A DNA stretch of 64,000 bases. Source: Promethearchaeota archaeon. GTDB taxonomy: Archaea > Asgardarchaeota > Lokiarchaeia > Sigyniarchaeales > SOKP01. Below, in pieces: positions 4,240 to 19,932 of the stretch. The stretch covers positions 96,001 through 160,000 of the forward strand of contig JBHLNF010000004.1 in the NCBI GenBank assembly GCA_048937405.1, in the 5' to 3' direction. Made by a program: the position numbers and the translations under genes. The notes below the pieces were generated by a model. The model did no database searches. It was not told where the DNA came from and saw only the letters and a list, made by a program, of their open reading frames with translations. The first letter of the stretch is position 1; every line of letters begins with the position of its first letter.

Positions 4240-5733
4240 TCATTTCTTTTTTTTGATTATCCCTTTCTCTCTTAATAGTTTAAGTACAATATTTCTAGAA
4301 ATATGAGGATCAGCTTGTCCTTTAGTTTTTTGCATTATTTTTCCAATTAACGCTTCTTTTGCTTTTGGATTTGCACGACAATCTTCCACAATCTTTGGAT
4401 TCTCTTCTATAACATCATTCCCTAATTTTATAAGAAAATTTTCATCGGATATTCTTTTTTTACCTTTTATTTCAAGAATTTCTGAAATGGAAAAACCTTC
4501 TATCATATCTTCTATTATAGTTTTTGCAATTTTGGTCGTAATTTTTCCTTCATTAATGTATCTGATAATATCAATGATTTGATGCGGGTGCAATTTTGTG
4601 TCTTTTATTGATTTATTTTGTTCATTTAATACTCTTAAAACATCATTCATTAACCAATTGCAGTATTGTTTATATTCATTGGACCCGAATGAAGCATCAG
4701 AATTTACACCTTCCTCGTAAAAATCGGCGATATCTTTATCCAGAACTAGGTTATCTGAATCAAATTCCGACAAATTGTATTCTCTCCTAAGCCTTAATGA
4801 TCTCTCATTTGGCATTTCAGGTAATTCATCTTTAACTTTTTGTATAAAAAGATTATCTATTTCTATTGGAACTAAATCTTGTTCAGGAAAATAACGATAA
4901 TCTGCTTCAAATTCTTTTGTTCTTAAAGAAATTGTAATTCTTCTTTTATCATCCCAATGTCTTGTTTCCTGCTGTAATTTCTTTCCTCGTTTAAGTGAGT
5001 TCTTTTGTCTTACAATTTCATGTCTTAAGGCTCGTTCTACTTCTTTAAAACTATTAATATTTTTAACTTCACTACGCTCATACCCCTTAATTGAGATATT
5101 AGCATCCACCCTTACTGATCCTTCAAGATCCAAACTCGAGATTCCTGTATACTGAACTATTGATTTTAATTGCTTTAGAAATTCACGTGCTTCTTCAGGT
5201 GAACTCATAACTGGTTCAGTCACTATTTCTATTAAAGTGACTCCTGATCTATTATAATCAACGAGCGTATAAGGTGAAGTTGCTATACTTCCTTTATGAA
5301 CTAGTCTTGCGGGGTCTTCTTCTAAGTGAATTCGATTGAGAATTATATCTTTCTTATGAGAATTTAATTTAATAGTAATTTTTCCACCATCTGCAAAAGC
5401 CTTTCCCCCCGCCTTATTATATTGACTTATCTGAAATCCTTTCGGAAGGTCTGGATAAAAGTAATTCTTTCTAAAGAACCAAAAAGAATCGTTTATATCA
5501 CAATCTAAAGCTAGAGCTAATCGTGTAGCAAATTCTATCGCCTTTCTGTTTATTACTGGCAATGAACCAGGAAGTCCGATACATATTGGACAGATATAAG
5601 TGTTTGACTCTGCACCTCGGTAATCAGTACTACAGCTACAAAAAAATTTCGTTTTTAGTTTTGTTAATTGGATATGTATTTCTAAACCAATTATTACTTC
5701 TTTATCTTTATATTCTAAATTAGAAAGCGTCAA
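4240..5733 (-). CDS. gatB: Asp/Glu-tRNA amidotransferase subunit B
   Basis: IGLEIHIQL, RKNYFYPDLPKGFQISQ, HLEED, DYNRSG, EVKNINS, YRYFPE. Confidence 0.97.
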   Translation of the reverse strand: MTLSNLEYKDKEVIIGLEIHIQLTKLKTKFFCSCSTDYRGAESNTYICPICIGLPGSLPVINRKAIEFATRLALALDCDINDSFWFFRKNYFYPDLPKGFQISQYNKAGGKAFADGGKITIKLNSHKKDIILNRIHLEEDPARLVHKGSIATSPYTLVDYNRSGVTLIEIVTEPVMSSPEEAREFLKQLKSIVQYTGISSLDLEGSVRVDANISIKGYERSEVKNINSFKEVERALRHEIVRQKNSLKRGKKLQQETRHWDDKRRITISLRTKEFEADYRYFPEQDLVPIEIDNLFIQKVKDELPEMPNERSLRLRREYNLSEFDSDNLVLDKDIADFYEEGVNSDASFGSNEYKQYCNWLMNDVLRVLNEQNKSIKDTKLHPHQIIDIIRYINEGKITTKIAKTIIEDMIEGFSISEILEIKGKKRISDENFLIKLGNDVIEENPKIVEDCRANPKAKEALIGKIMQKTKGQADPHISRNIVLKLLREKGIIKKKK

Positions 5734-5805
5734 AGCTGATAAATTATAAAGTATAAAAATATAAAAAATTCACTCTTAACTTAAAAAATTAATTATAAAT
5801 AAATT

Positions 5806-7548
5806 TTAAAAATTTTGAGAGTATTTATCCATAATTTGTCTATAACTTAAAGTCCTAACACCATTTTTTTCAAAAAGTCTCTCATAAAATTCATGAACTT
5901 CATCCCAAGTCATTTTTTTATATGATTTTAACTTAAATTTTTCTCCAATAATATTCCTCGGATTCATTCCACAACCCAATGACTTAATAGCTACATCCCG
6001 TCTTAATTTCTTTTGAATGCTGTCGAAAGATAAACCTCTAGTTCCTACTAACAAATGGGAAATCTGTTGATATATATAATATACCATTTCTCTTGATGTA
6101 CCAATTTTTTTCCCTATAATAATACCTGTTTTTCCTTCTATTATCCATTCTTTATATTGACCAATATCAACTCCTCTCATAAGAGTTTTTAATTTATAAC
6201 TTGAAGTACCTAAAAGATCATTTTCTTTTTTTTTTGATTCAATATGTGTTTTAACAATTTTAACGTCTAAATATCCATATTTTTTAATTATTTCCTTTAA
6301 ACATTTAATTGAACCGAAATATCGGTCAAATTTATTATTTGACCAATCCAATAAATCCAAAATATCTTTTTTCATGATATTTCTATCATATTTTAATAAT
6401 TTTTCCAGAATTGGTAACATAAATTTTAAGTATACATTTTGTTGCTTACCCAACATATTTTTGATTTGTCGATTTAATTCTCTGATTTTAAGATGCTCTA
6501 AATTTCTGTATTGTTTTTTTATTATTTCAGTAATAGAAATGTATTTTACACCAAGAGATAGCATTCCTAAAATATCCAACCAAGGAAGTTTGTAAACTAT
6601 ACCGCTTATACCACGCCCTCCTCCACCTTCTCGTTCATTTAATCCATTCTCTACGGTTCCAATAGTTCCATCATCATTTCTATATGAACGGGTATATTCT
6701 CTCTCTCTATCCCGTGCTATTCCTACACCTCTAGTTATTTCTACTCTGACAATATCAAAACAACATTTAATAATATCCTCTCTAATATAGTATAACCGTA
6801 TTTTATACTCTTTAGTACCTTTAATTTCAACTAAATCAGTATAAATTTCCTCAAAAGTTACCCCTTTTGACAAGAGTCTACTATATTTAATATTTAATTT
6901 TATTGCTTTCCTAATTGCGCTATGCAATTTTATAAGCGATACATGCATGTGATTTTCCTTACAAATCCCACGGGGTGCTAAAGATTCCATAATATGTTCT
7001 TCAATTCTTCTATTTAAATCATCAGTAAATCCAAAATATGACATCCCCTTAAATGGTTTTATTTTGCATTTTAATTGATATACCATGTGGGTTATTCCTA
7101 AAATAAATCTATTTCTCCAAATATCTTCATTGTAATCCATAAACAATTTCTCACCTTCTGGTGTATAACTGTCTAATGTCCTTTGAGAACCTTGATGTGA
7201 TTTAGAATTTCTGAATCCATATTCAAGCTTGATTAAATAGGACTTTTTATCATTATACCAACGTTCTATAAAAGATTTAGATGATTGTAAGAGTTTTTTA
7301 ACTTTTGGGCTACCTTCATGTTTTACAAAAATTGATTTTCTAACCAAAGAATAACCTTTTAAAAAGCCAACACCATCAATGGATATTTGTAACTCTATTT
7401 CTGGGTCATAAGTTTTTCTCACTAATTTATTAATCTGGGTAGAATCATCATTTTGGTGAGATTGGATATTTTCATCAAAAAATGTATTATTTTTATAATT
7501 ATTCAGTTTTTTTTTTGGGTTATCAGTACAATATAGTTTATCATTCAT
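5806..7548 (-). CDS. GIY-YIG (I-TevI-like) endonuclease with long C-terminal putative DNA-binding region
   Basis: MVY..(SYFG)FTDDLNRRIEEH, IKLHSAIRK, FDIVRVE, DRERE, NGLN-EGGG parallel GIY-YIG motifs incl. catalytic R/E/N; HTH-like TGIIIGKKIGTSREMVYYI. Confidence 0.75.
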   Translation of the reverse strand: MNDKLYCTDNPKKKLNNYKNNTFFDENIQSHQNDDSTQINKLVRKTYDPEIELQISIDGVGFLKGYSLVRKSIFVKHEGSPKVKKLLQSSKSFIERWYNDKKSYLIKLEYGFRNSKSHQGSQRTLDSYTPEGEKLFMDYNEDIWRNRFILGITHMVYQLKCKIKPFKGMSYFGFTDDLNRRIEEHIMESLAPRGICKENHMHVSLIKLHSAIRKAIKLNIKYSRLLSKGVTFEEIYTDLVEIKGTKEYKIRLYYIREDIIKCCFDIVRVEITRGVGIARDREREYTRSYRNDDGTIGTVENGLNEREGGGGRGISGIVYKLPWLDILGMLSLGVKYISITEIIKKQYRNLEHLKIRELNRQIKNMLGKQQNVYLKFMLPILEKLLKYDRNIMKKDILDLLDWSNNKFDRYFGSIKCLKEIIKKYGYLDVKIVKTHIESKKKENDLLGTSSYKLKTLMRGVDIGQYKEWIIEGKTGIIIGKKIGTSREMVYYIYQQISHLLVGTRGLSFDSIQKKLRRDVAIKSLGCGMNPRNIIGEKFKLKSYKKMTWDEVHEFYERLFEKNGVRTLSYRQIMDKYSQNF

Positions 7549-7920
7549 ATTTGAAATTGATTCCTCCCAATTAATTTTTGGTTGTTTCTAGGGTATTAAA
7601 ACATACTTTTCATTAGCTATACTATTTTCGCTTATACTGATAAATCAGTTAATTAGTCTATTTAAATATTATAATCTATCTAATTTAGTAATTTTTAATC
7701 CTTTTCATAAATACAATATGTAGAATTTACTTTTTTATTGGACTAATTAATTTATTTGCATATTCTGATTATATAAGCCGTTGAAACGACAATTTAAAAC
7801 TTTTAGAAAGCTAGCTTATCTTACCAATCTATAGTTTATTAGAATTTAGAAGTTCAATAATATAATTTAGTTCTGGTTTTCGAATTAAGAGTAATAAATC
7901 TTTATAACTAAATAGGGTAT

Positions 7921-8691
7921 TTAGTTAGTAGAAGGAAATAATAATTTCATCTGTGATTGAATTTCACGTTTATTCCATATAGAAATCTCATATAATATCT
8001 TGTAAAAGAAATTTATGATTACTTTTGGATCTTTAGTATCTTTTATTTTATCAAATTCATCCAATTTTTGTTCTAAAGACTGAAAATTGAATTTATTATT
8101 AGGATAAAATTTTTGAATAAATCGTTTTGCTTTTCTAAGATAATTTTTTACACTAATAAAATACTCATGATTTTTCATTTTATCTATAATTTTTAAAGAT
8201 AAATAATATCCTATAATTGTTTTATAACTATGAACAATGTTTATTGGTTCACCTTTAATATTACCTTTATTCTTAGCATCTTTCCATAAATGAGCATCAT
8301 CAATATATAATTCATATAGTCCTTTAAATTGAATCAGATTATAATCGACAAAACAATCTAGTAAATGATTTAAAATTAAAAAAAGACCTTCAAATATCTT
8401 ATTTTTTTTTATACCAGATCCTGCAAAATACATGTAATCTGTTTTTTTTGTTAAAAAAATATGACCTAATTCATGAATTGGTGTAAAATCATTGTCTGAA
8501 GGAAGTAAATATATACCCCATTTTTTCTCTTTTTCGTACCATTGCAAAAAAGCCCTATTTTTTGCAGAAATCCCAATATCGATGTCTTCTTTTTCTAAAC
8601 CTAAAATATTTTTATATTTCATTAAGAGTTGTTCCAATTCTTTGAGTCTTTTTACTTCTTTAGAGGTTAATAAGATTGGTTTTTTCGACAT
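7921..8691 (-). CDS. Hypothetical HExxH (zincin-like) protein
   Basis: IHELGH motif with downstream acidic residues (NHLLDCFVD). Confidence 0.6.
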   Translation of the reverse strand: MSKKPILLTSKEVKRLKELEQLLMKYKNILGLEKEDIDIGISAKNRAFLQWYEKEKKWGIYLLPSDNDFTPIHELGHIFLTKKTDYMYFAGSGIKKNKIFEGLFLILNHLLDCFVDYNLIQFKGLYELYIDDAHLWKDAKNKGNIKGEPINIVHSYKTIIGYYLSLKIIDKMKNHEYFISVKNYLRKAKRFIQKFYPNNKFNFQSLEQKLDEFDKIKDTKDPKVIINFFYKILYEISIWNKREIQSQMKLLFPSTN

Positions 8692-8983
8692 ATTGAGTCT
8701 ATTGTTTACTTTCTCTGTCTTTAATTAATATTTAGTTTACCAATTATAATTGCATTTTTTAGAACGACTTAATTAATTGTTCTTTGCAACTATTAAATAA
8801 TTATAACTCTCAGATGATTTACTAAATATTAGTAGAATTCTTAATCACAAAGATAATTGATTTATTCAATGCTTAAAAAAAATTGAATTCTGAAATTTTC
8901 TTCAATATCCGATCTGATTATAAAAAAGATACATTTTAATCTGGAATATTTAATTGATTCTTATACTATTATAGAAAATCGAC

Positions 8984-9037
8984 TAATTAAATATGAACTT
9001 CTAAACCAATGATAACATCATTATTTTGAATGCTGAT
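8984..9037 (-). pseudogene. gatB: Decayed remnant of the gatB 5' end: (I)SIQNNDVIIGLEVHI*L
   Basis: Matches GatB DKEVIIGLEIHIQL; identical 12-mer at 8999-9010 and 5680-5691; CAA>TAA; follows GGAGGT in the gatA 3' end. Confidence 0.8.
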
Positions 9038-9039
9038 AT

Positions 9040-10521
9040 TTAATTACCTCCTCTGGTTACTGGTGCAATTTTACGATAGATGTTCAATTCTTGTTCTAGC
9101 TGATAAGCTATGTTAAGTATTCCTTTCTCATCAAAATAATCCCCAATTATTTGAAATCCCACAGGCAAGTTATTACCATCAAAACCACAGGGGATAGATA
9201 CTGCTGGAATACCTGCTAAATTAACAGGACAAGTCAGTATATCTGCGAGGTACATCTGTAAAGGATCATCAATTAACTCTCCAATTTTGAAAGCTGTTGA
9301 AGGCATTGTTGGAGAGACAATAGCATCACATTTTTTAAAAGCTTCTGAAAAATCATTTTTTATTAAAGTCCTAACCTTTAAAGCTTTCATATAGAACATA
9401 TCATAATATCCCGCAGATAAGGCATAAGTACCTAAAAAAATTCTTCTTCGTACCTCACTCCCTAATTTTTCAACTCTAGTCCTACTAAATACATCGTAAA
9501 CATCCCCTGAAAGATTTTCACTCATATTTCCATATCTTAAACCGTCATATCTCGCTAAATTTGAACTAGCTTCGCTCATACAAATTAAATAATAAGTTGC
9601 AACAGTGTATTCTAAGTGAGGTATTGAAATGGGTATTATTTTTGCCCCCAATCCTTCTAATTTAGTAATTGCTTTTTTAATAATATTCTCTACTTCCTTA
9701 TTTACACCCTCTCCAAAAAATTCTTTTGGGACACCCAATACTTTCTTATTAATAGGATTATCTAATTCTTCTGTATAATTATCAACTTTTTTATCTACTG
9801 ATGTAGAATCAAGGAGATCCTTACCTGAAATTATTTCAAGCATTAGAGCAGAATCATTTACACATTTAGTAATTGTGCCAATCTGATCTAACGAATTCGC
9901 GAATGCTACTAATCCAAATCTAGAAACTCTACCATATGTAGGTTTTAATCCAACAGTTCCACAGAATGAAGCAGGACAACGAATGCTCCCGCCAGTGTCA
10001 CTCCCTAAAGCTAGTATTGTTTGTCCTGATGCTATACTAGCGGCAGAACCACCACTCGAGCCCCCTGGTACTCTTGTTAGATCCCAAGGATTATATGTAG
10101 GGCCATAACAACTGTTTTCTGTAGAACTTCCCATTGCAAATTCATCCATATTTGTATTTCCTATATGAATTGCTCCCTGATCCTCAATGAGACGTTCAAT
10201 AACAAATGCATTATAAGGTGGACAATAATCTTTCAATATTTTTGAACTACAAGTTGTTGGAAAATCTTTAATGCATATAAGATCTTTATTGGCCAAAGGC
10301 AAACCATACAAATCCCCTACTTTTTTACCATTTTTAAGATCCTTATCAATTCTTTTTGCTTTTGCTAAAGCTTTTTCTTTCGATAATTTAACAAAGGAGT
10401 GAAGTAAATCCTCTTTCTCTTCTGTCCTTTCAAAACACGTTTCTAATAACTCTTGAACTGAGATATCCCTATTTTTTATCATTTCAATTAATTCATATCC
10501 CATATATTCAAAGAGTTTCAT
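9040..10521 (-). CDS. gatA: Asp/Glu-tRNA amidotransferase subunit A
   Basis: Amidase signature GGSSGGSAA, GSDTGGSIR, NMDEFAMGSSTE, SNLARYDG. Confidence 0.97.
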   Translation of the reverse strand: MKLFEYMGYELIEMIKNRDISVQELLETCFERTEEKEDLLHSFVKLSKEKALAKAKRIDKDLKNGKKVGDLYGLPLANKDLICIKDFPTTCSSKILKDYCPPYNAFVIERLIEDQGAIHIGNTNMDEFAMGSSTENSCYGPTYNPWDLTRVPGGSSGGSAASIASGQTILALGSDTGGSIRCPASFCGTVGLKPTYGRVSRFGLVAFANSLDQIGTITKCVNDSALMLEIISGKDLLDSTSVDKKVDNYTEELDNPINKKVLGVPKEFFGEGVNKEVENIIKKAITKLEGLGAKIIPISIPHLEYTVATYYLICMSEASSNLARYDGLRYGNMSENLSGDVYDVFSRTRVEKLGSEVRRRIFLGTYALSAGYYDMFYMKALKVRTLIKNDFSEAFKKCDAIVSPTMPSTAFKIGELIDDPLQMYLADILTCPVNLAGIPAVSIPCGFDGNNLPVGFQIIGDYFDEKGILNIAYQLEQELNIYRKIAPVTRGGN

Positions 10522-10611: not shown

Positions 10612-11913
10612 TTAAGGTGATTTTCTAATCATAGTTCTGGGAAATGGTATGGCATCTTTAATATTCTCTATTCCACATAGCCACATAACAACTCTTTCAA
10701 CTCCTACGCCATAACCAGAGTGGGGAACACTACCATAGCGTCTTAATTCAAAATACCACTCATAATTTTTAGGATTTTCACCATCAGATTCTAATCTTCT
10801 AATCATATCATCAATTAATAAAGAGCGTTCAGATCCCCCTACAATTTCACAATATCCTTCTGGTGCGAGCATATCAAAACATAATGCTTCTTTAGGATTA
10901 TCATTACTTGGTGGTTTATAAAATCCCATGATCTCAGTGGGATAATGCGTAACTACAACAGGCACCTTAAAATGATCTGCTATTTTTGCTTCTTCAATAG
11001 TTCTTAAATCCTTACCCCAAGGAACATTCATCTTATATTTAGAATTAAGAATTTCTAATGCTTCTGCATATTTAATAGTAGGATATTCTGCTTGAACATA
11101 ATGCTCTAATAATGTAATATCTCTCTCTAAGATTTCTAATTCTTTTCGATTATGTTGTAAAACTTGCTTAACAATAAATCGAATCTCATCCTTTGCAACT
11201 TCGGTAACTTCATCTAATTGCATCCAAGCAGCTTCCATTTCAGCCATCCAAAATTCTGATAGATGTCTTGAGGTTTTAGATTTTTCTGCTCTGAACGTTG
11301 GTCCCATATTATATATTTTCCCTAATGAAAAAATACCTGCTTCCGCATACAATTGCCATGTTTGGCTAAGATATATGATATCGTTGAAATATTTTACTTC
11401 AAATAAGGTAGCTCCTCCCTCAGATTGGCTAGGTTGAAAAATCGGAGCATCAAACTCATAATATCCATTATTTCTAAAAAATTCATGTATCGCTCCAACA
11501 ATAGTATGTCGTATTTTTAAAATAGCATTCAATTTTCTGGATCTCAACCATAAATGTCTATTATCATACAACAATTCTGGAGATTGGTGTTCTGTAATCG
11601 GAAACGGTTCAGCAATTTGAATTATTTCCAAATCTGAAACTGAAACTTCGTAACCTGTAGGTGCTCTATCATCTTTCTTTAATTCACCTGATACTTTTAC
11701 TGAAGATTCAATTGTTAGTTTTTCAGCCATTTCAAAGATCTCTGGATTTTTAGCTTTAGAAACAACACACTGAATTATATCTGATTCATCTCTTAATACA
11801 ATGAAAATGAATTTATTCGATTTTCGTTCTCTGTAAATCCAACCTCTTAAATTTACCTTCACTGTGCCTTTCTTAAGAGCATCATCAATTGTTGTGTATT
11901 TTGAATCTCTCAT
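10612..11913 (-). CDS. asnS: Asparagine--tRNA ligase
   Basis: N-terminal OB fold; LSQTWQLY, FRAEKSKTSRHLSEFWMAE, EIVGGSER, PHSGYGVGVER (AsnRS-type, not AspRS QSPQLYKQ). Confidence 0.92.
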   Translation of the reverse strand: MRDSKYTTIDDALKKGTVKVNLRGWIYRERKSNKFIFIVLRDESDIIQCVVSKAKNPEIFEMAEKLTIESSVKVSGELKKDDRAPTGYEVSVSDLEIIQIAEPFPITEHQSPELLYDNRHLWLRSRKLNAILKIRHTIVGAIHEFFRNNGYYEFDAPIFQPSQSEGGATLFEVKYFNDIIYLSQTWQLYAEAGIFSLGKIYNMGPTFRAEKSKTSRHLSEFWMAEMEAAWMQLDEVTEVAKDEIRFIVKQVLQHNRKELEILERDITLLEHYVQAEYPTIKYAEALEILNSKYKMNVPWGKDLRTIEEAKIADHFKVPVVVTHYPTEIMGFYKPPSNDNPKEALCFDMLAPEGYCEIVGGSERSLLIDDMIRRLESDGENPKNYEWYFELRRYGSVPHSGYGVGVERVVMWLCGIENIKDAIPFPRTMIRKSP

Positions 11914-15399: not shown

Positions 15400-17445
<2,046 letters not shown>

Positions 17446-17493
17446 TTCTTAATTAAAAATCTAAAATAATTTAAAATTGAGATGGTGTCATAA

Positions 17494-19932
17494 TTGACTT
17501 CAGAACAAATTGAAGAAATTTTATTAAAAGATGAAATGCAAAGTGCCTACATCGATTATGCTATGAGCGTGGTTGTTGGGAGGGCCATTCCAGATGTTAG
17601 AGATGGACTCAAACATGTACATAGACGTATTATCTATGCTATGGCAGAAAGTAATTGGAATTATAATAGTTCACATGTTAAATGTGCTAAAATTGTAGGG
17701 CAAGTTTTAGGGAATTATCATCCTCATGGGGATATGGCTGTTTATAATGCATTAGTTCGAATGGGACAAGATTTTTCTTTAAGATATCCATTAATCCATC
17801 CACAGGGGAATTTTGGGTCAATAGATGGAGATCCTCCCGCAGCTTATAGGTATACTGAAGCAAGATTGTCTCAAATTTCAAATGAATTAATTGAAGATAT
17901 TGATAAAGAAACAGTAGAATTTGTACCTAATTTTGATAATAGTACTGTTGAACCACTATATTTACCAGCAAAACTTCCAAATATTTTGTTAAATGGTACA
18001 AAAGGTATTGCTGTAGGAATGGCAACATCTATGGCACCACATAATTTAACAGAAGTTTGTAATGGTATTATCGCAACTATTAATGAGCCTGATATTTCAA
18101 TAGAGGAATTAATGGAGATAATAAAAGGACCTGATTTTCCAACAGGTGGTATTATTACTGATACTAATGGAATCTCAAATGCATATCATACTGGTAATGG
18201 GACCATAAATATTAGCGGTAGAATCGAAACTGAAACAACTGCGAAAAAGACTAGTCTTATCATTACAGAGATCCCATATTTGGTGAATAAAACCGATTTA
18301 ATTGAATCTATTGCCAAATTGATTAAGGATGGTATTCTTAAAGATGTTAGAGATTTGAGAGATGAGTCAGATAGGAAAGGTATGCGTATTGTATTAGATT
18401 TAGCTAAAAATGCTCAACCAGTCATAGTAAAAAATATTCTCTTTAAGAGAACGAGACTTCTCACAACTTTCAACATAACAAATTTAGTTTTAATTAATGA
18501 AGGTAAACAACCTAAAATCCTCAATCTAAAAGAGATAATTAATGAATATATTGAGCACCGATTAATAATCATTCAAAAAAGGACAGAGTATCTTCTCAAA
18601 AAGGCAAAAGATCGGCTTCATAGGGTTGAGGGGCTTTTAATTGCATTAAATGATATTGATAATGTAGTGAATTTGATAAAAAGTTCAAAAGATACTAATG
18701 AAGCTAAAACTAAATTAAAAACCACTTATAAGTTAAGTGACATACAAGTCCAATCAATTTTGAGTATGCCATTATCAAGATTAACAAATTTGGAACAGCA
18801 AAAGTTAGTTGATGAGCAAAAATCATTACAAGCTAGTATTAAGGAATACAATAAAATTCTGAAAGAAAAACAAGTTCGCTTAAACATTATCAAAAATGAT
18901 TTAATGGAATTAAACAAAAAGTATGGTGATGATAGAAAGACTGAAATCAAAATGGTGGAGCATCATGAAATAAAAGAAATTGAAAAGATTGATTTAATCA
19001 AAAAAGAAACCACCATAGTAATTTTTACAAAAAACCAATACATTAAAAGAATCTCGTTAGAAGAATATCAAGCTCAAAGACGAGGAGGTCGTGGGAAAAA
19101 GAGTATGACTATTCGTGAGGAAGATTTTATTACAGATCTATTTGTTAGTACAACTCATGATACCATTCTAATTTTCACTTCGAAAGGAAGGGTTTATTCC
19201 ATTAGATGTTTTGATATACCGTTACAAAAGCGAACTGCGCGAGGAAAGCCAATTATTAATTTTATCCCTCTACAATCAGGTGAAAATATTTCTGCTATGA
19301 TACCAATTAATAACTTCAATACGAATGAAATGCTTATTATGACTACAAAGAAAGGGATTATCAAAAAAGTCCCTTTAAAATTATTCTCTAAATTTAAAAC
19401 CACAGGAGTAAGAGCACAAAGAATCAGACCAGATGATGAATTGGTAAGTGCTAAAAGACTCTCAAATGAACTCCAAGATATTTTTATAGCTACAAAATTA
19501 GGATATGCAGTAAGATTCGATGAATCAGAATTACGTGAATTAGGTAGAAATTCTATGGGAGTAAAGGGAGCAGAATTAAGAGAAAATGATGAAGTTATCG
19601 ATACACTCCTTGTATCTGATGATGAGATAATATTGACTCTTACCCAAAATGCATATGGTCAAAGAACCTACGTTAAAGAATATCGAAAAACTGGACGAGG
19701 GGCAAAAGGAGTAAAAAATATAACGCTTGATAAAACTAAAGATGATAGGGTCATTGCCACAAAAATTGCTAAAAACATGGACTTATTAATTGGAACAGAA
19801 CAAGGACAAATGATCCGACTGCCAGTAGATTCTATAAGAATCACTCATAGAACAGCTAAGGGTGTTCGAGTAATTAAACTTTACGAAGATGATTTCGTAG
19901 TAGCAATTGGAAAGTGTGAACAAGAACCATAA
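17494..19932 (+). CDS. gyrA: DNA gyrase subunit A
   Basis: YHPHGD, AAYRYTEA catalytic Tyr, GyrA-box QRRGGRG, C-terminal pinwheel repeats. Confidence 0.97.
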   Translation: MTSEQIEEILLKDEMQSAYIDYAMSVVVGRAIPDVRDGLKHVHRRIIYAMAESNWNYNSSHVKCAKIVGQVLGNYHPHGDMAVYNALVRMGQDFSLRYPLIHPQGNFGSIDGDPPAAYRYTEARLSQISNELIEDIDKETVEFVPNFDNSTVEPLYLPAKLPNILLNGTKGIAVGMATSMAPHNLTEVCNGIIATINEPDISIEELMEIIKGPDFPTGGIITDTNGISNAYHTGNGTINISGRIETETTAKKTSLIITEIPYLVNKTDLIESIAKLIKDGILKDVRDLRDESDRKGMRIVLDLAKNAQPVIVKNILFKRTRLLTTFNITNLVLINEGKQPKILNLKEIINEYIEHRLIIIQKRTEYLLKKAKDRLHRVEGLLIALNDIDNVVNLIKSSKDTNEAKTKLKTTYKLSDIQVQSILSMPLSRLTNLEQQKLVDEQKSLQASIKEYNKILKEKQVRLNIIKNDLMELNKKYGDDRKTEIKMVEHHEIKEIEKIDLIKKETTIVIFTKNQYIKRISLEEYQAQRRGGRGKKSMTIREEDFITDLFVSTTHDTILIFTSKGRVYSIRCFDIPLQKRTARGKPIINFIPLQSGENISAMIPINNFNTNEMLIMTTKKGIIKKVPLKLFSKFKTTGVRAQRIRPDDELVSAKRLSNELQDIFIATKLGYAVRFDESELRELGRNSMGVKGAELRENDEVIDTLLVSDDEIILTLTQNAYGQRTYVKEYRKTGRGAKGVKNITLDKTKDDRVIATKIAKNMDLLIGTEQGQMIRLPVDSIRITHRTAKGVRVIKLYEDDFVVAIGKCEQEP

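What the first reader, a model, noticed from the sequence alone, without database searches (positions are those of the whole stretch)
5665..9037. Free-standing GIY-YIG homing-endonuclease island that appears to have replaced the 5' end of gatB
Seen: 2 bp after the gatA stop, and 8 nt after a GGAGGT SD, the minus strand reads ATC AGC ATT CAA AAT AAT GAT GTT ATC ATT GGT TTA GAA GTT CAT ATT TAA TTA = (I)SIQNNDVIIGLEVHI*L. The functional gatB 3.3 kb away reads ...GAA GTA ATA ATT GGT TTA GAA ATA CAT ATC CAA TTA (EVIIGLEIHIQL). Core differences are mostly synonymous or conservative (GTA/GTT, ATA/ATC, ATC/ATT, E/D, I/V), plus a CAA>TAA stop. A GIY-YIG nuclease gene and an HExxH gene lie between the copies; no integrase or transposase is present. 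Known: free-standing GIY-YIG elements in fungal mitochondria (Allomyces atp6) insert into a conserved gene and supply a diverged replacement gene end. Inference: this is a chromosomal, intron-less homing element in an Asgard archaeon that targets the conserved IGLE(V/I)H codons of gatB and restores the gene with a cleavage-resistant 5' end. I know of no description of this in archaea.
Basis: partly seen in the sequence, partly recalled or inferred. Interest (0 to 1): 0.88.

Follow-up and report, generated by a model that had tools for sequence, protein, structure and literature searches.

The report
Homing nuclease island rebuilding archaeal gatB
In an Asgard archaeon, a selfish DNA-cutting gene and a passenger gene have lodged in the start of the gatB gene and kept it whole with a new front end borrowed from another genus; this trick is known from fungal mitochondria, and I found no description of it for archaeal chromosomes.

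Summary
Observation confirmed and extended. The 54-nt stub after gatA is the native gatB start (51/54 identical to the two closest relatives; about 100 genomes have gatA-gatB abutting). The working gatB is a mosaic: a non-homologous N-terminus, codons ~13-113 resembling another genus (34:4 informative sites), then native sequence (101:17; p=2e-17). The 580-aa protein keeps the GIY-YIG catalytic residues, and its model best matches the I-TevI catalytic domain (Z 8.5), followed by helix-turn-helix modules. Related nucleases lie directly before gatB in four other genomes, with different cargo. Native stubs mostly end at codons 16-26, and one replicate has a 30-codon foreign tract. The wider family (40/133 genomes of one family) clusters by insertion locus and flanks other duplicated gene ends; a second copy here sits at the rfcS start. 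Best reading: an intron-less homing cassette with gene-end replacement and co-conversion, like fungal mitochondrial mORFs. Cleavage is untested, a recoded resistant allele is not supported, the HExxH gene is cargo, and one locus breaks at codon 104. The scan noted related nucleases on other Asgard DNA before (e1-5425878, e1-5425925).

The parts
9040..10521 (-). gatA, native left flank
   Evidence: Pfam Amidase; 88% nt to G036/G103 vs 73% to genus g27; informative sites 102 own: 24 g27
8984..9037 (-). native gatB 5' stub, codons ~6-23 in working-gene numbering, start ATG>ATC and CAA>TAA; left junction of the island at codon 21-23
   Evidence: 51/54 nt identical to empty alleles of G036 and G103; similarity stops after codon 23
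8692..8983 (.). non-coding island DNA, 21% GC
   Evidence: no Rfam match
7921..8691 (-). 256-aa HExxH protein of unknown function; cargo
   Evidence: no significant Pfam or PADLOC hit; atlas look-alikes are unnamed or metallopeptidase-like folds; homologue P0009 (68%) lies at an unrelated locus; absent from the other gatB islands
5806..7548 (-). 580-aa GIY-YIG nuclease: N-terminal extension, catalytic domain ~153-307 (Y157, Y171, G173, R181, H185, E282, N304), helical and helix-turn-helix modules to the C-terminus
   Evidence: Pfam GIY-YIG; conserved columns in 60 homologues; model pLDDT 85; best fold match I-TevI 1ln0, Z 8.5, rmsd 2.2, 86 of 92 aligned; AraC-like double HTH at 453-575
5734..5805 (-). 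72-nt spacer, 11% GC, presumed new promoter and leader for gatB (inferred; no Shine-Dalgarno sequence before the TTG)
   Evidence: function not tested
5698..5733 (-). new gatB codons 1-12, not homologous to empty alleles, TTG start
   Evidence: codon alignment with empty alleles
5395..5697 (-). foreign gatB tract, codons 13-113, closest to genus g27; crossover to native sequence between codons 113 and 125 (5395-5359)
   Evidence: 87/85/84% to G087/G093/G092 vs 75-76% to G036/G103; three-way scan 34:4 then 17:101, p 2e-17
4240..5394 (-). native remainder of gatB, open to its stop
   Evidence: about 90% nt to G036/G103 vs 72-75% to g27; Pfam GatB_N and GatB_Yqey

Best explanation
A free-standing homing cassette of the gene-end-replacement type. 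Shown: a GIY-YIG nuclease gene plus exchangeable cargo occupies the 5' part of gatB; the old start is left as a dead stub, and a new start plus a foreign gatB tract follows the nuclease. Inferred: the I-TevI-like enzyme binds a long site with its helical/HTH modules and breaks uninterrupted gatB near codons 20-26. The left end is repaired on the donor's own stub (short homology in IGLE(V/I)HIQL), the right end on the donor's gatB copy. This copies in cargo, nuclease, new promoter and N-terminus, and a variable stretch of donor gatB (about 100 codons here, about 30 in L031). The filled allele escapes cutting because the site is split, perhaps helped by substitutions. How donor DNA reaches the cell is unknown.
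For: Empty site is the rule (about 100 abutting genomes). Native stub and foreign working end in two independent cases: the window and L031, whose stub is 44/45 identical to empty G158 and ends at H20 while the new copy differs at 21 of 90 nt in codons 13-42 and only 3 of 180 in codons 43-102. Nuclease, or its 3' relic in G092, lies directly upstream of the new gatB start in all five filled sites while cargo differs completely. The closest nucleases (G090 71%, G092 relic 73%) are in genus g27, the same genus that best matches the foreign tract. Catalytic residues and fold intact. Tree clusters by locus: 11 label changes vs 23.6 shuffled, 0 of 200 as low; gatB clade 100/100. Other family members flank duplicated gene ends, 5' (L084, L117) or 3' (L087, L096), and a second member in this genome sits at the rfcS start with a new N-terminus. 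Precedent: Allomyces and Glomus mORFs (PMC3630166).
Against: Filled alleles are rare (3 of about 105 sampled genomes), and the G092 nuclease is a relic; this fits the decay phase of a homing cycle but not strong current drive. L033 keeps gatA plus native-context codons 1-104 beside an apparently intact nuclease and is broken at codon 104/105 instead. A truncated gatB-clade copy lies at an unrelated locus in G001. Most other family loci (roughly two thirds of about 30 tested) show no detectable duplication. No excess recoding at the presumed site. Tree clustering by locus is also expected from vertical descent of old insertions, and genomes are not independent. Some family members are C-terminal domains of giant proteins.
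Confidence: 0.7

Rival explanations
1. A cargo hot spot filled by ordinary homologous or microhomology-aided recombination. One ancient rearrangement separated gatA and gatB; the island then moves between lineages by exchange in conserved gatB blocks, and the nuclease is a passenger (for example defence) with no role in mobility.
For: Crossovers fall in the best-conserved gatB blocks (codons 14-23 and 113-125). Cargo is defence-like at some loci: PADLOC PDC-M30A and DitA hits, AlbA_2, AbiTii. Genus g22 has gatA and gatB apart with neither stub nor nuclease.
Against: The nuclease is the only constant gene and always abuts the new gene end; the design repeats at several unrelated host genes with separate nuclease clades; the nuclease has no PADLOC hit.
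Confidence: 0.15
2. A decayed integrase-driven island, like SXT/R391 at prfC, that restored the gene with a new 5' end and later lost its recombinase.
For: SXT/R391 elements integrate in the 5' end of prfC and restore it with a hybrid gene (PMC7251087); the layout (old start, island, new start) is the same.
Against: No integrase-sized candidate in the window island, and none recognised in the other filled gatB sites or the rfcS island. Site-specific recombination leaves a short fixed core, not foreign tracts of 30 and 100 codons with different right ends.
Confidence: 0.05
3. The nuclease cuts near its own gene, but the result is local break repair (segmental duplication and capture of stray DNA), not allele-to-allele homing; or its site lies near codon 105 rather than 20-26.
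For: G090 has a 182-nt, 96%-identical direct repeat of the new gatB start around 1.1 kb of captured DNA. L033 is split at codon 104/105 by a segment holding a whole second gatB. Phage SegB drives segmental amplification (PMC13096335).
Against: The working 5' tract in the window comes from another genus, which needs a foreign template. In L031 the foreign tract ends at codon ~42, well before 105.
Confidence: 0.1

Closest known systems
Fungal mitochondrial mobile ORFs (mORFs) with a foreign gene end: Allomyces macrogynus atp6; Glomus atp6, atp9, cox2, nad3 (PMC3630166); free GIY genes duplicated with the N-terminus of atp9 (PMC7487136)
   Same: Endonuclease ORF between a native, now unused gene end and a foreign functional copy; native piece nearly identical to a close relative; no intron
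   Different: Archaeal chromosome; 5' end replaced, with a new promoter and invented N-terminus; exchangeable cargo of 1-9 kb; 580-aa nuclease with internal catalytic domain and HTH modules; activity untested
I-TevI (PDB 1ln0) and related GIY-YIG homing endonucleases
   Same: Catalytic fold (Z 8.5, rmsd 2.2) and Y-Y-G-R-H-E-N residues; separate C-terminal DNA-binding modules
   Different: Not in an intron; about 150 residues precede the catalytic domain; about 70-residue helical insertion in it; DNA-binding part ends in an AraC-like double HTH
Intronless homing by T4 Seg/Mob enzymes (SegF, SegB, MobE; PMC13565253, PMC2790892, PMC13096335)
   Same: Free-standing gene next to a conserved gene; co-conversion of flanking sequence between diverged lineages
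   Different: Those are phage elements that lie between intact genes and tell alleles apart by substitutions; here the target gene is interrupted and its end duplicated
SXT/R391 ICEs at prfC (PMC7251087)
   Same: Insertion in the 5' end of a conserved translation gene, restored by an element-borne 5' end; variable cargo
   Different: No integrase, no fixed 17-bp att core, no conjugation genes; long variable foreign tracts

Membership tests
GIY-YIG nuclease superfamily | GIY-YIG motif with conserved Arg, His, Glu, Asn | tested here: met
   PF01541 23.0 bits vs cut-off 22.6; 25 of 60 homologues hit it; Y157, Y171, G173, R181, E282, N304 conserved in at least 90%
GIY-YIG nuclease superfamily | GIY-YIG fold | tested here: met
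   VIA-align top hit 1ln0 Z 8.5, rmsd 2.2, 86 aligned; also T4 EndoII and UvrC; Foldseek on the whole model gave nothing significant
Homing endonuclease | Filled and empty alleles at an orthologous site | tested here: met
   about 100 empty, 5 filled with nuclease or relic
Homing endonuclease | Co-conversion of flanking sequence from the donor | tested here: met
   foreign tracts of about 100 and about 30 codons on the gatB side; none on the gatA side. The cause is inferred
Homing endonuclease | Cuts the empty allele at a long specific site and spares the filled allele | not testable with these tools
   needs a biochemical assay
Homing endonuclease | Clades track insertion site | tested here: met
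   11 changes vs 23.6 shuffled; exceptions: ectopic truncated G001 copy, two lineages at one radical-SAM gene; relatedness of hosts contributes
Fungal mORF hybrid-gene elements | Native gene end stranded, foreign copy functional | tested here: met
Fungal mORF hybrid-gene elements | Mitochondrial location and C-terminal replacement | tested here: not met
   archaeal contig; 5' end here; 3' ends are duplicated at L087 and L096. Works like an mORF, not a member
T4 Seg-type intronless homing | Self protected by substitutions in an uninterrupted target gene | tested here: inconclusive
   no excess synonymous change at codons 14-29; gene is interrupted and duplicated
Integrase islands (SXT/R391 type) | Site-specific recombinase and short identical att cores | tested here: not met
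   only two genes in the island; repeat is 44 nt at 80%
Group I or archaeal intron with homing endonuclease | Intron RNA structure between contiguous, non-duplicated exons | tested here: not met
   no intron family in Rfam at E up to 1; exon 1 is duplicated and its start mutated; RNA not examined

The most novel reading that the evidence does not exclude
One family of Asgard archaea carries a whole family of integrase-free, intron-free mobile cassettes. Each clade of a large GIY-YIG-HTH nuclease cuts one end of a conserved chromosomal gene (gatB, rfcS, radical-SAM genes and others), homes across genera, rebuilds the gene end and ferries kilobases of defence-like cargo. This would be a route to genomic islands and mosaic core genes that is not described for archaea.
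Probability: 0.45. Interest if true: 0.85.

Novelty: new variant of a known kind. Interest (0 to 1): 0.74.

Why it matters
It would carry a strategy known from fungal mitochondria (a homing nuclease that replaces the gene end it destroys) to the chromosomes of the archaea closest to eukaryotes, and show islands moving without integrase, transposase or intron. It records gene conversion between genera about 75% identical in a translation gene, so such marker genes can be mosaics. It implies DNA exchange among these archaea. It also supplies a set of large nucleases whose likely targets can be read from the junctions, so specificity is directly testable.

Tried and rejected
Recoded resistant allele: no excess divergence at codons 14-29. 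Cut near codon 105 as the general site: suggested by L033 and by the window tract end, rejected because the L031 tract ends at codon ~42. Intron: no Rfam intron match; only a sub-threshold PreQ1 hit, E 0.24. HExxH gene as a fixed partner: absent from other gatB islands, homologues elsewhere. Defence-system identity for the two window genes: no PADLOC hit. First structure model from 6 sequences was poor; Foldseek and PDB sequence search did not find the catalytic domain. Terminal inverted repeats or target-site duplication: none convincing in AT-rich DNA. gatA-gatB separation in genus g22: no stub or nuclease found, not counted as the element. Paper searches and two Asgard mobilome papers gave no description of such elements; the library lacks most subscription journals.
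Full report
1. Observation. The window has asnS, gatA (10521-9040), a 3.3-kb insert and gatB (5733-4240), all on the minus strand. Two bases after the gatA stop lies a 54-nt stub that repeats the gatB IIGLE(V/I)HI codons and ends in TAA. The repeat is 44 nt at 80% identity, marginal by itself. It is real by orthology: in 26 same-genus genomes gatB starts right after gatA, and the stub is 51/54 identical to G036 and G103 against 37/54 to the working copy. Reading the class-wide searches together, about 100 genomes have the genes abutting (my count from the tables). The host is an Asgard archaeon: the nearest nuclease record is labelled Ca. Hermodarchaeota by NCBI and lies in the same GTDB family as the window. 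Lokiarchaeia is my inference; the tools give no class name.

2. The working gatB is a mosaic. Identity to G036 is 70-82% over codons 11-105 and about 90% afterwards. The 5' tract matches genus g27 best (87, 85, 84%) and the nearest own-genus genomes at 75-76%, whereas the gatA end is 88% to the own genus and 73% to g27. A three-way scan gives 34 g27-like to 4 native sites before codon 114 and 17 to 101 after it (p 2e-17), with the crossover between codons 113 and 125. gatA is native throughout. Codons 1-12 have no homology to empty alleles. The frame is open and most differences are synonymous (26:10 against G087), so the gene looks functional; the TTG start has no Shine-Dalgarno sequence, and expression is untested.

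3. The nuclease. Pfam GIY-YIG is just over cut-off. In 60 homologues Y157, Y171, G173, R181, E282 and N304 are conserved; by my knowledge these match I-TevI Y6, Y17, G19, R27, E75 and N90. The model (pLDDT 85) aligns best with the I-TevI catalytic domain (Z 8.5, rmsd 2.2, residues 153-307) and with AraC-type double helix-turn-helix domains at 453-575. Z 8.5 is only a little above background for this search, but it agrees with Pfam and the residues. The HExxH gene has no family hit, its 68% homologue sits at an unrelated variable locus, and only distant relatives occur in 8 other genomes: it is cargo.

4. The same site in other genomes. L031 (55% nuclease): stub, four cargo genes, nuclease, gatB. 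Its stub is 44/45 identical to the empty allele of G158 and ends at H20; the new copy differs at 21 of 90 nt in codons 13-42 and 3 of 180 in codons 43-102. This is an independent replicate with a shorter tract. G092 (g27): decayed stub to about codon 26, a TPR gene, a 44-aa nuclease relic (73%), new gatB start. G090 (g27, 71% nuclease): a stub ending near codon 16 on one contig; on another, nuclease, then the new gatB start twice (182 nt, 96%) around 1.1 kb of captured DNA, broken at codon 25; linkage of the two contigs is inferred. L033 (53%): gatB 1-104, a DUF5677 gene, nuclease, a whole second gatB, then the rest of the old gene from codon 105. All new alleles have different, non-homologous N-termini before codon 13-14. 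Five of six left junctions fall in codons 16-26; L033 is the exception. Four g22 genomes have gatA and gatB apart without stub or nuclease.

5. The family. Profiles find it in 40 of 133 genomes of the window's family, 1 of 14 in a sister family and none of the 239 other genomes of the phylum searched; 121 representatives exist at 50% clustering. The tree groups members by neighbouring host gene, sometimes across genera, though shared descent contributes. Duplicated host-gene ends flank members at L084 (5', 61 codons), L117 (5', 55), L087 (3', 50) and L096 (3', 113), and longer duplications at L097 and L110. Most other loci show none by this test. This genome holds a second member at the start of rfcS, in a 9.5-kb island with AbiTii, AlbA_2 and DUF6602 cargo; G001, G014 and G023 are empty there, and rfcS has a new N-terminus.

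6. Mechanism. Shown: filled and empty alleles, native stub, foreign tracts of variable length, constant nuclease, variable cargo, intact catalytic residues. Inferred: a break near codons 20-26 of uninterrupted gatB, repair on a donor allele with the left crossover in the short conserved block and the right crossover further down gatB, and protection of the filled allele by splitting of the site (0.70). Rivals: passenger nuclease in a recombination hot spot (0.15), local break repair or a different cut site (0.10), decayed integrase island (0.05). gatB may not be essential: asnS is adjacent, and six same-genus genomes of 83-98% completeness gave no gatB or gatA match; gatC is elsewhere on this contig.

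7. Comparison with what is known. It works like the fungal mitochondrial mORFs, where an endonuclease ORF brings a foreign gene end and strands the native one (PMC3630166; PMC7487136), but it is not a member of that group. It shares co-conversion with T4 intronless homing, which a 2026 review documents mainly in phages (PMC13565253), and 5' restoration with SXT/R391 (PMC7251087) without an integrase. Paper searches found no archaeal description; the library is incomplete. Earlier scan notes report similar nucleases at a vWA gene end and beside an E2 mini-intron in other Asgard genomes, and a tiny cassette replacing a transketolase tail in a CPR bacterium; I did not test them and do not count them as support.

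8. Verdict. A real feature; a new variant of a known kind; interest 0.74. The comparative case for nuclease-linked gene-end replacement is strong. Cleavage, the exact site and present activity remain untested, and reads could not be examined.

Noticed in passing
G000:C7:899012-908345 (L180:4012-13345): Second member of the nuclease family (629 aa) in a 9.5-kb island with defence-like cargo at the start of rfcS; relatives are empty and rfcS has a new N-terminus.
   Followed up: partly
L099, L107, L110, L113; G000:C28 (L181): Some family members form the C-terminal domain of giant ORFs (1,300-13,700 aa). The G000 homologue ends in a different domain followed by a small coupled gene, which resembles polymorphic toxin organisation or repeated in-frame invasion.
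   Followed up: partly
L036:1195-2510 (G090): 182-nt, 96% direct repeat of the new gatB start around 1.1 kb of captured DNA; looks like a second round of breakage at codon 25.
   Followed up: partly
L033:4142-10967: Old gatB split at codon 104/105 by a segment with cargo, nuclease, a whole 593-aa gatB with a C-terminal extension and a Roadblock fragment; the working copy is closer to G091 than the split copy is.
   Followed up: partly
window 10612-11913 next to gatA; G000:C17:67485-67700: asnS lies directly upstream of gatA-gatB; gatC is about 33 kb away; six fairly complete same-genus genomes gave no gatA or gatB match.
   Followed up: partly
L156 (G091:C3): Tandem gatA-gatB duplication with a diverged second pair.
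   Followed up: no
L149, L150, L151, L164 (genus g22): gatA and gatB separated by 3-16 kb with no stub or nuclease detected.
   Followed up: partly
L029, L152, L155, L161-L163; L073:11638; L116:3872: Many empty gatB alleles start with TTG or CTG, one apparently ATA; two filled alleles lack ATG/GTG/TTG and may use ATA or ATT.
   Followed up: partly
L085 (G001:C396), L115 (G088:C331): Truncated fragments similar to the gatB-clade nuclease at unrelated loci.
   Followed up: partly
L040:2566-3681: Group II intron reverse transcriptase gene upstream of a distant family member; probably coincidental.
   Followed up: no
window 15421-19932: Bacterial-type gyrB-gyrA-like pair (from the translations only).
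   Followed up: no
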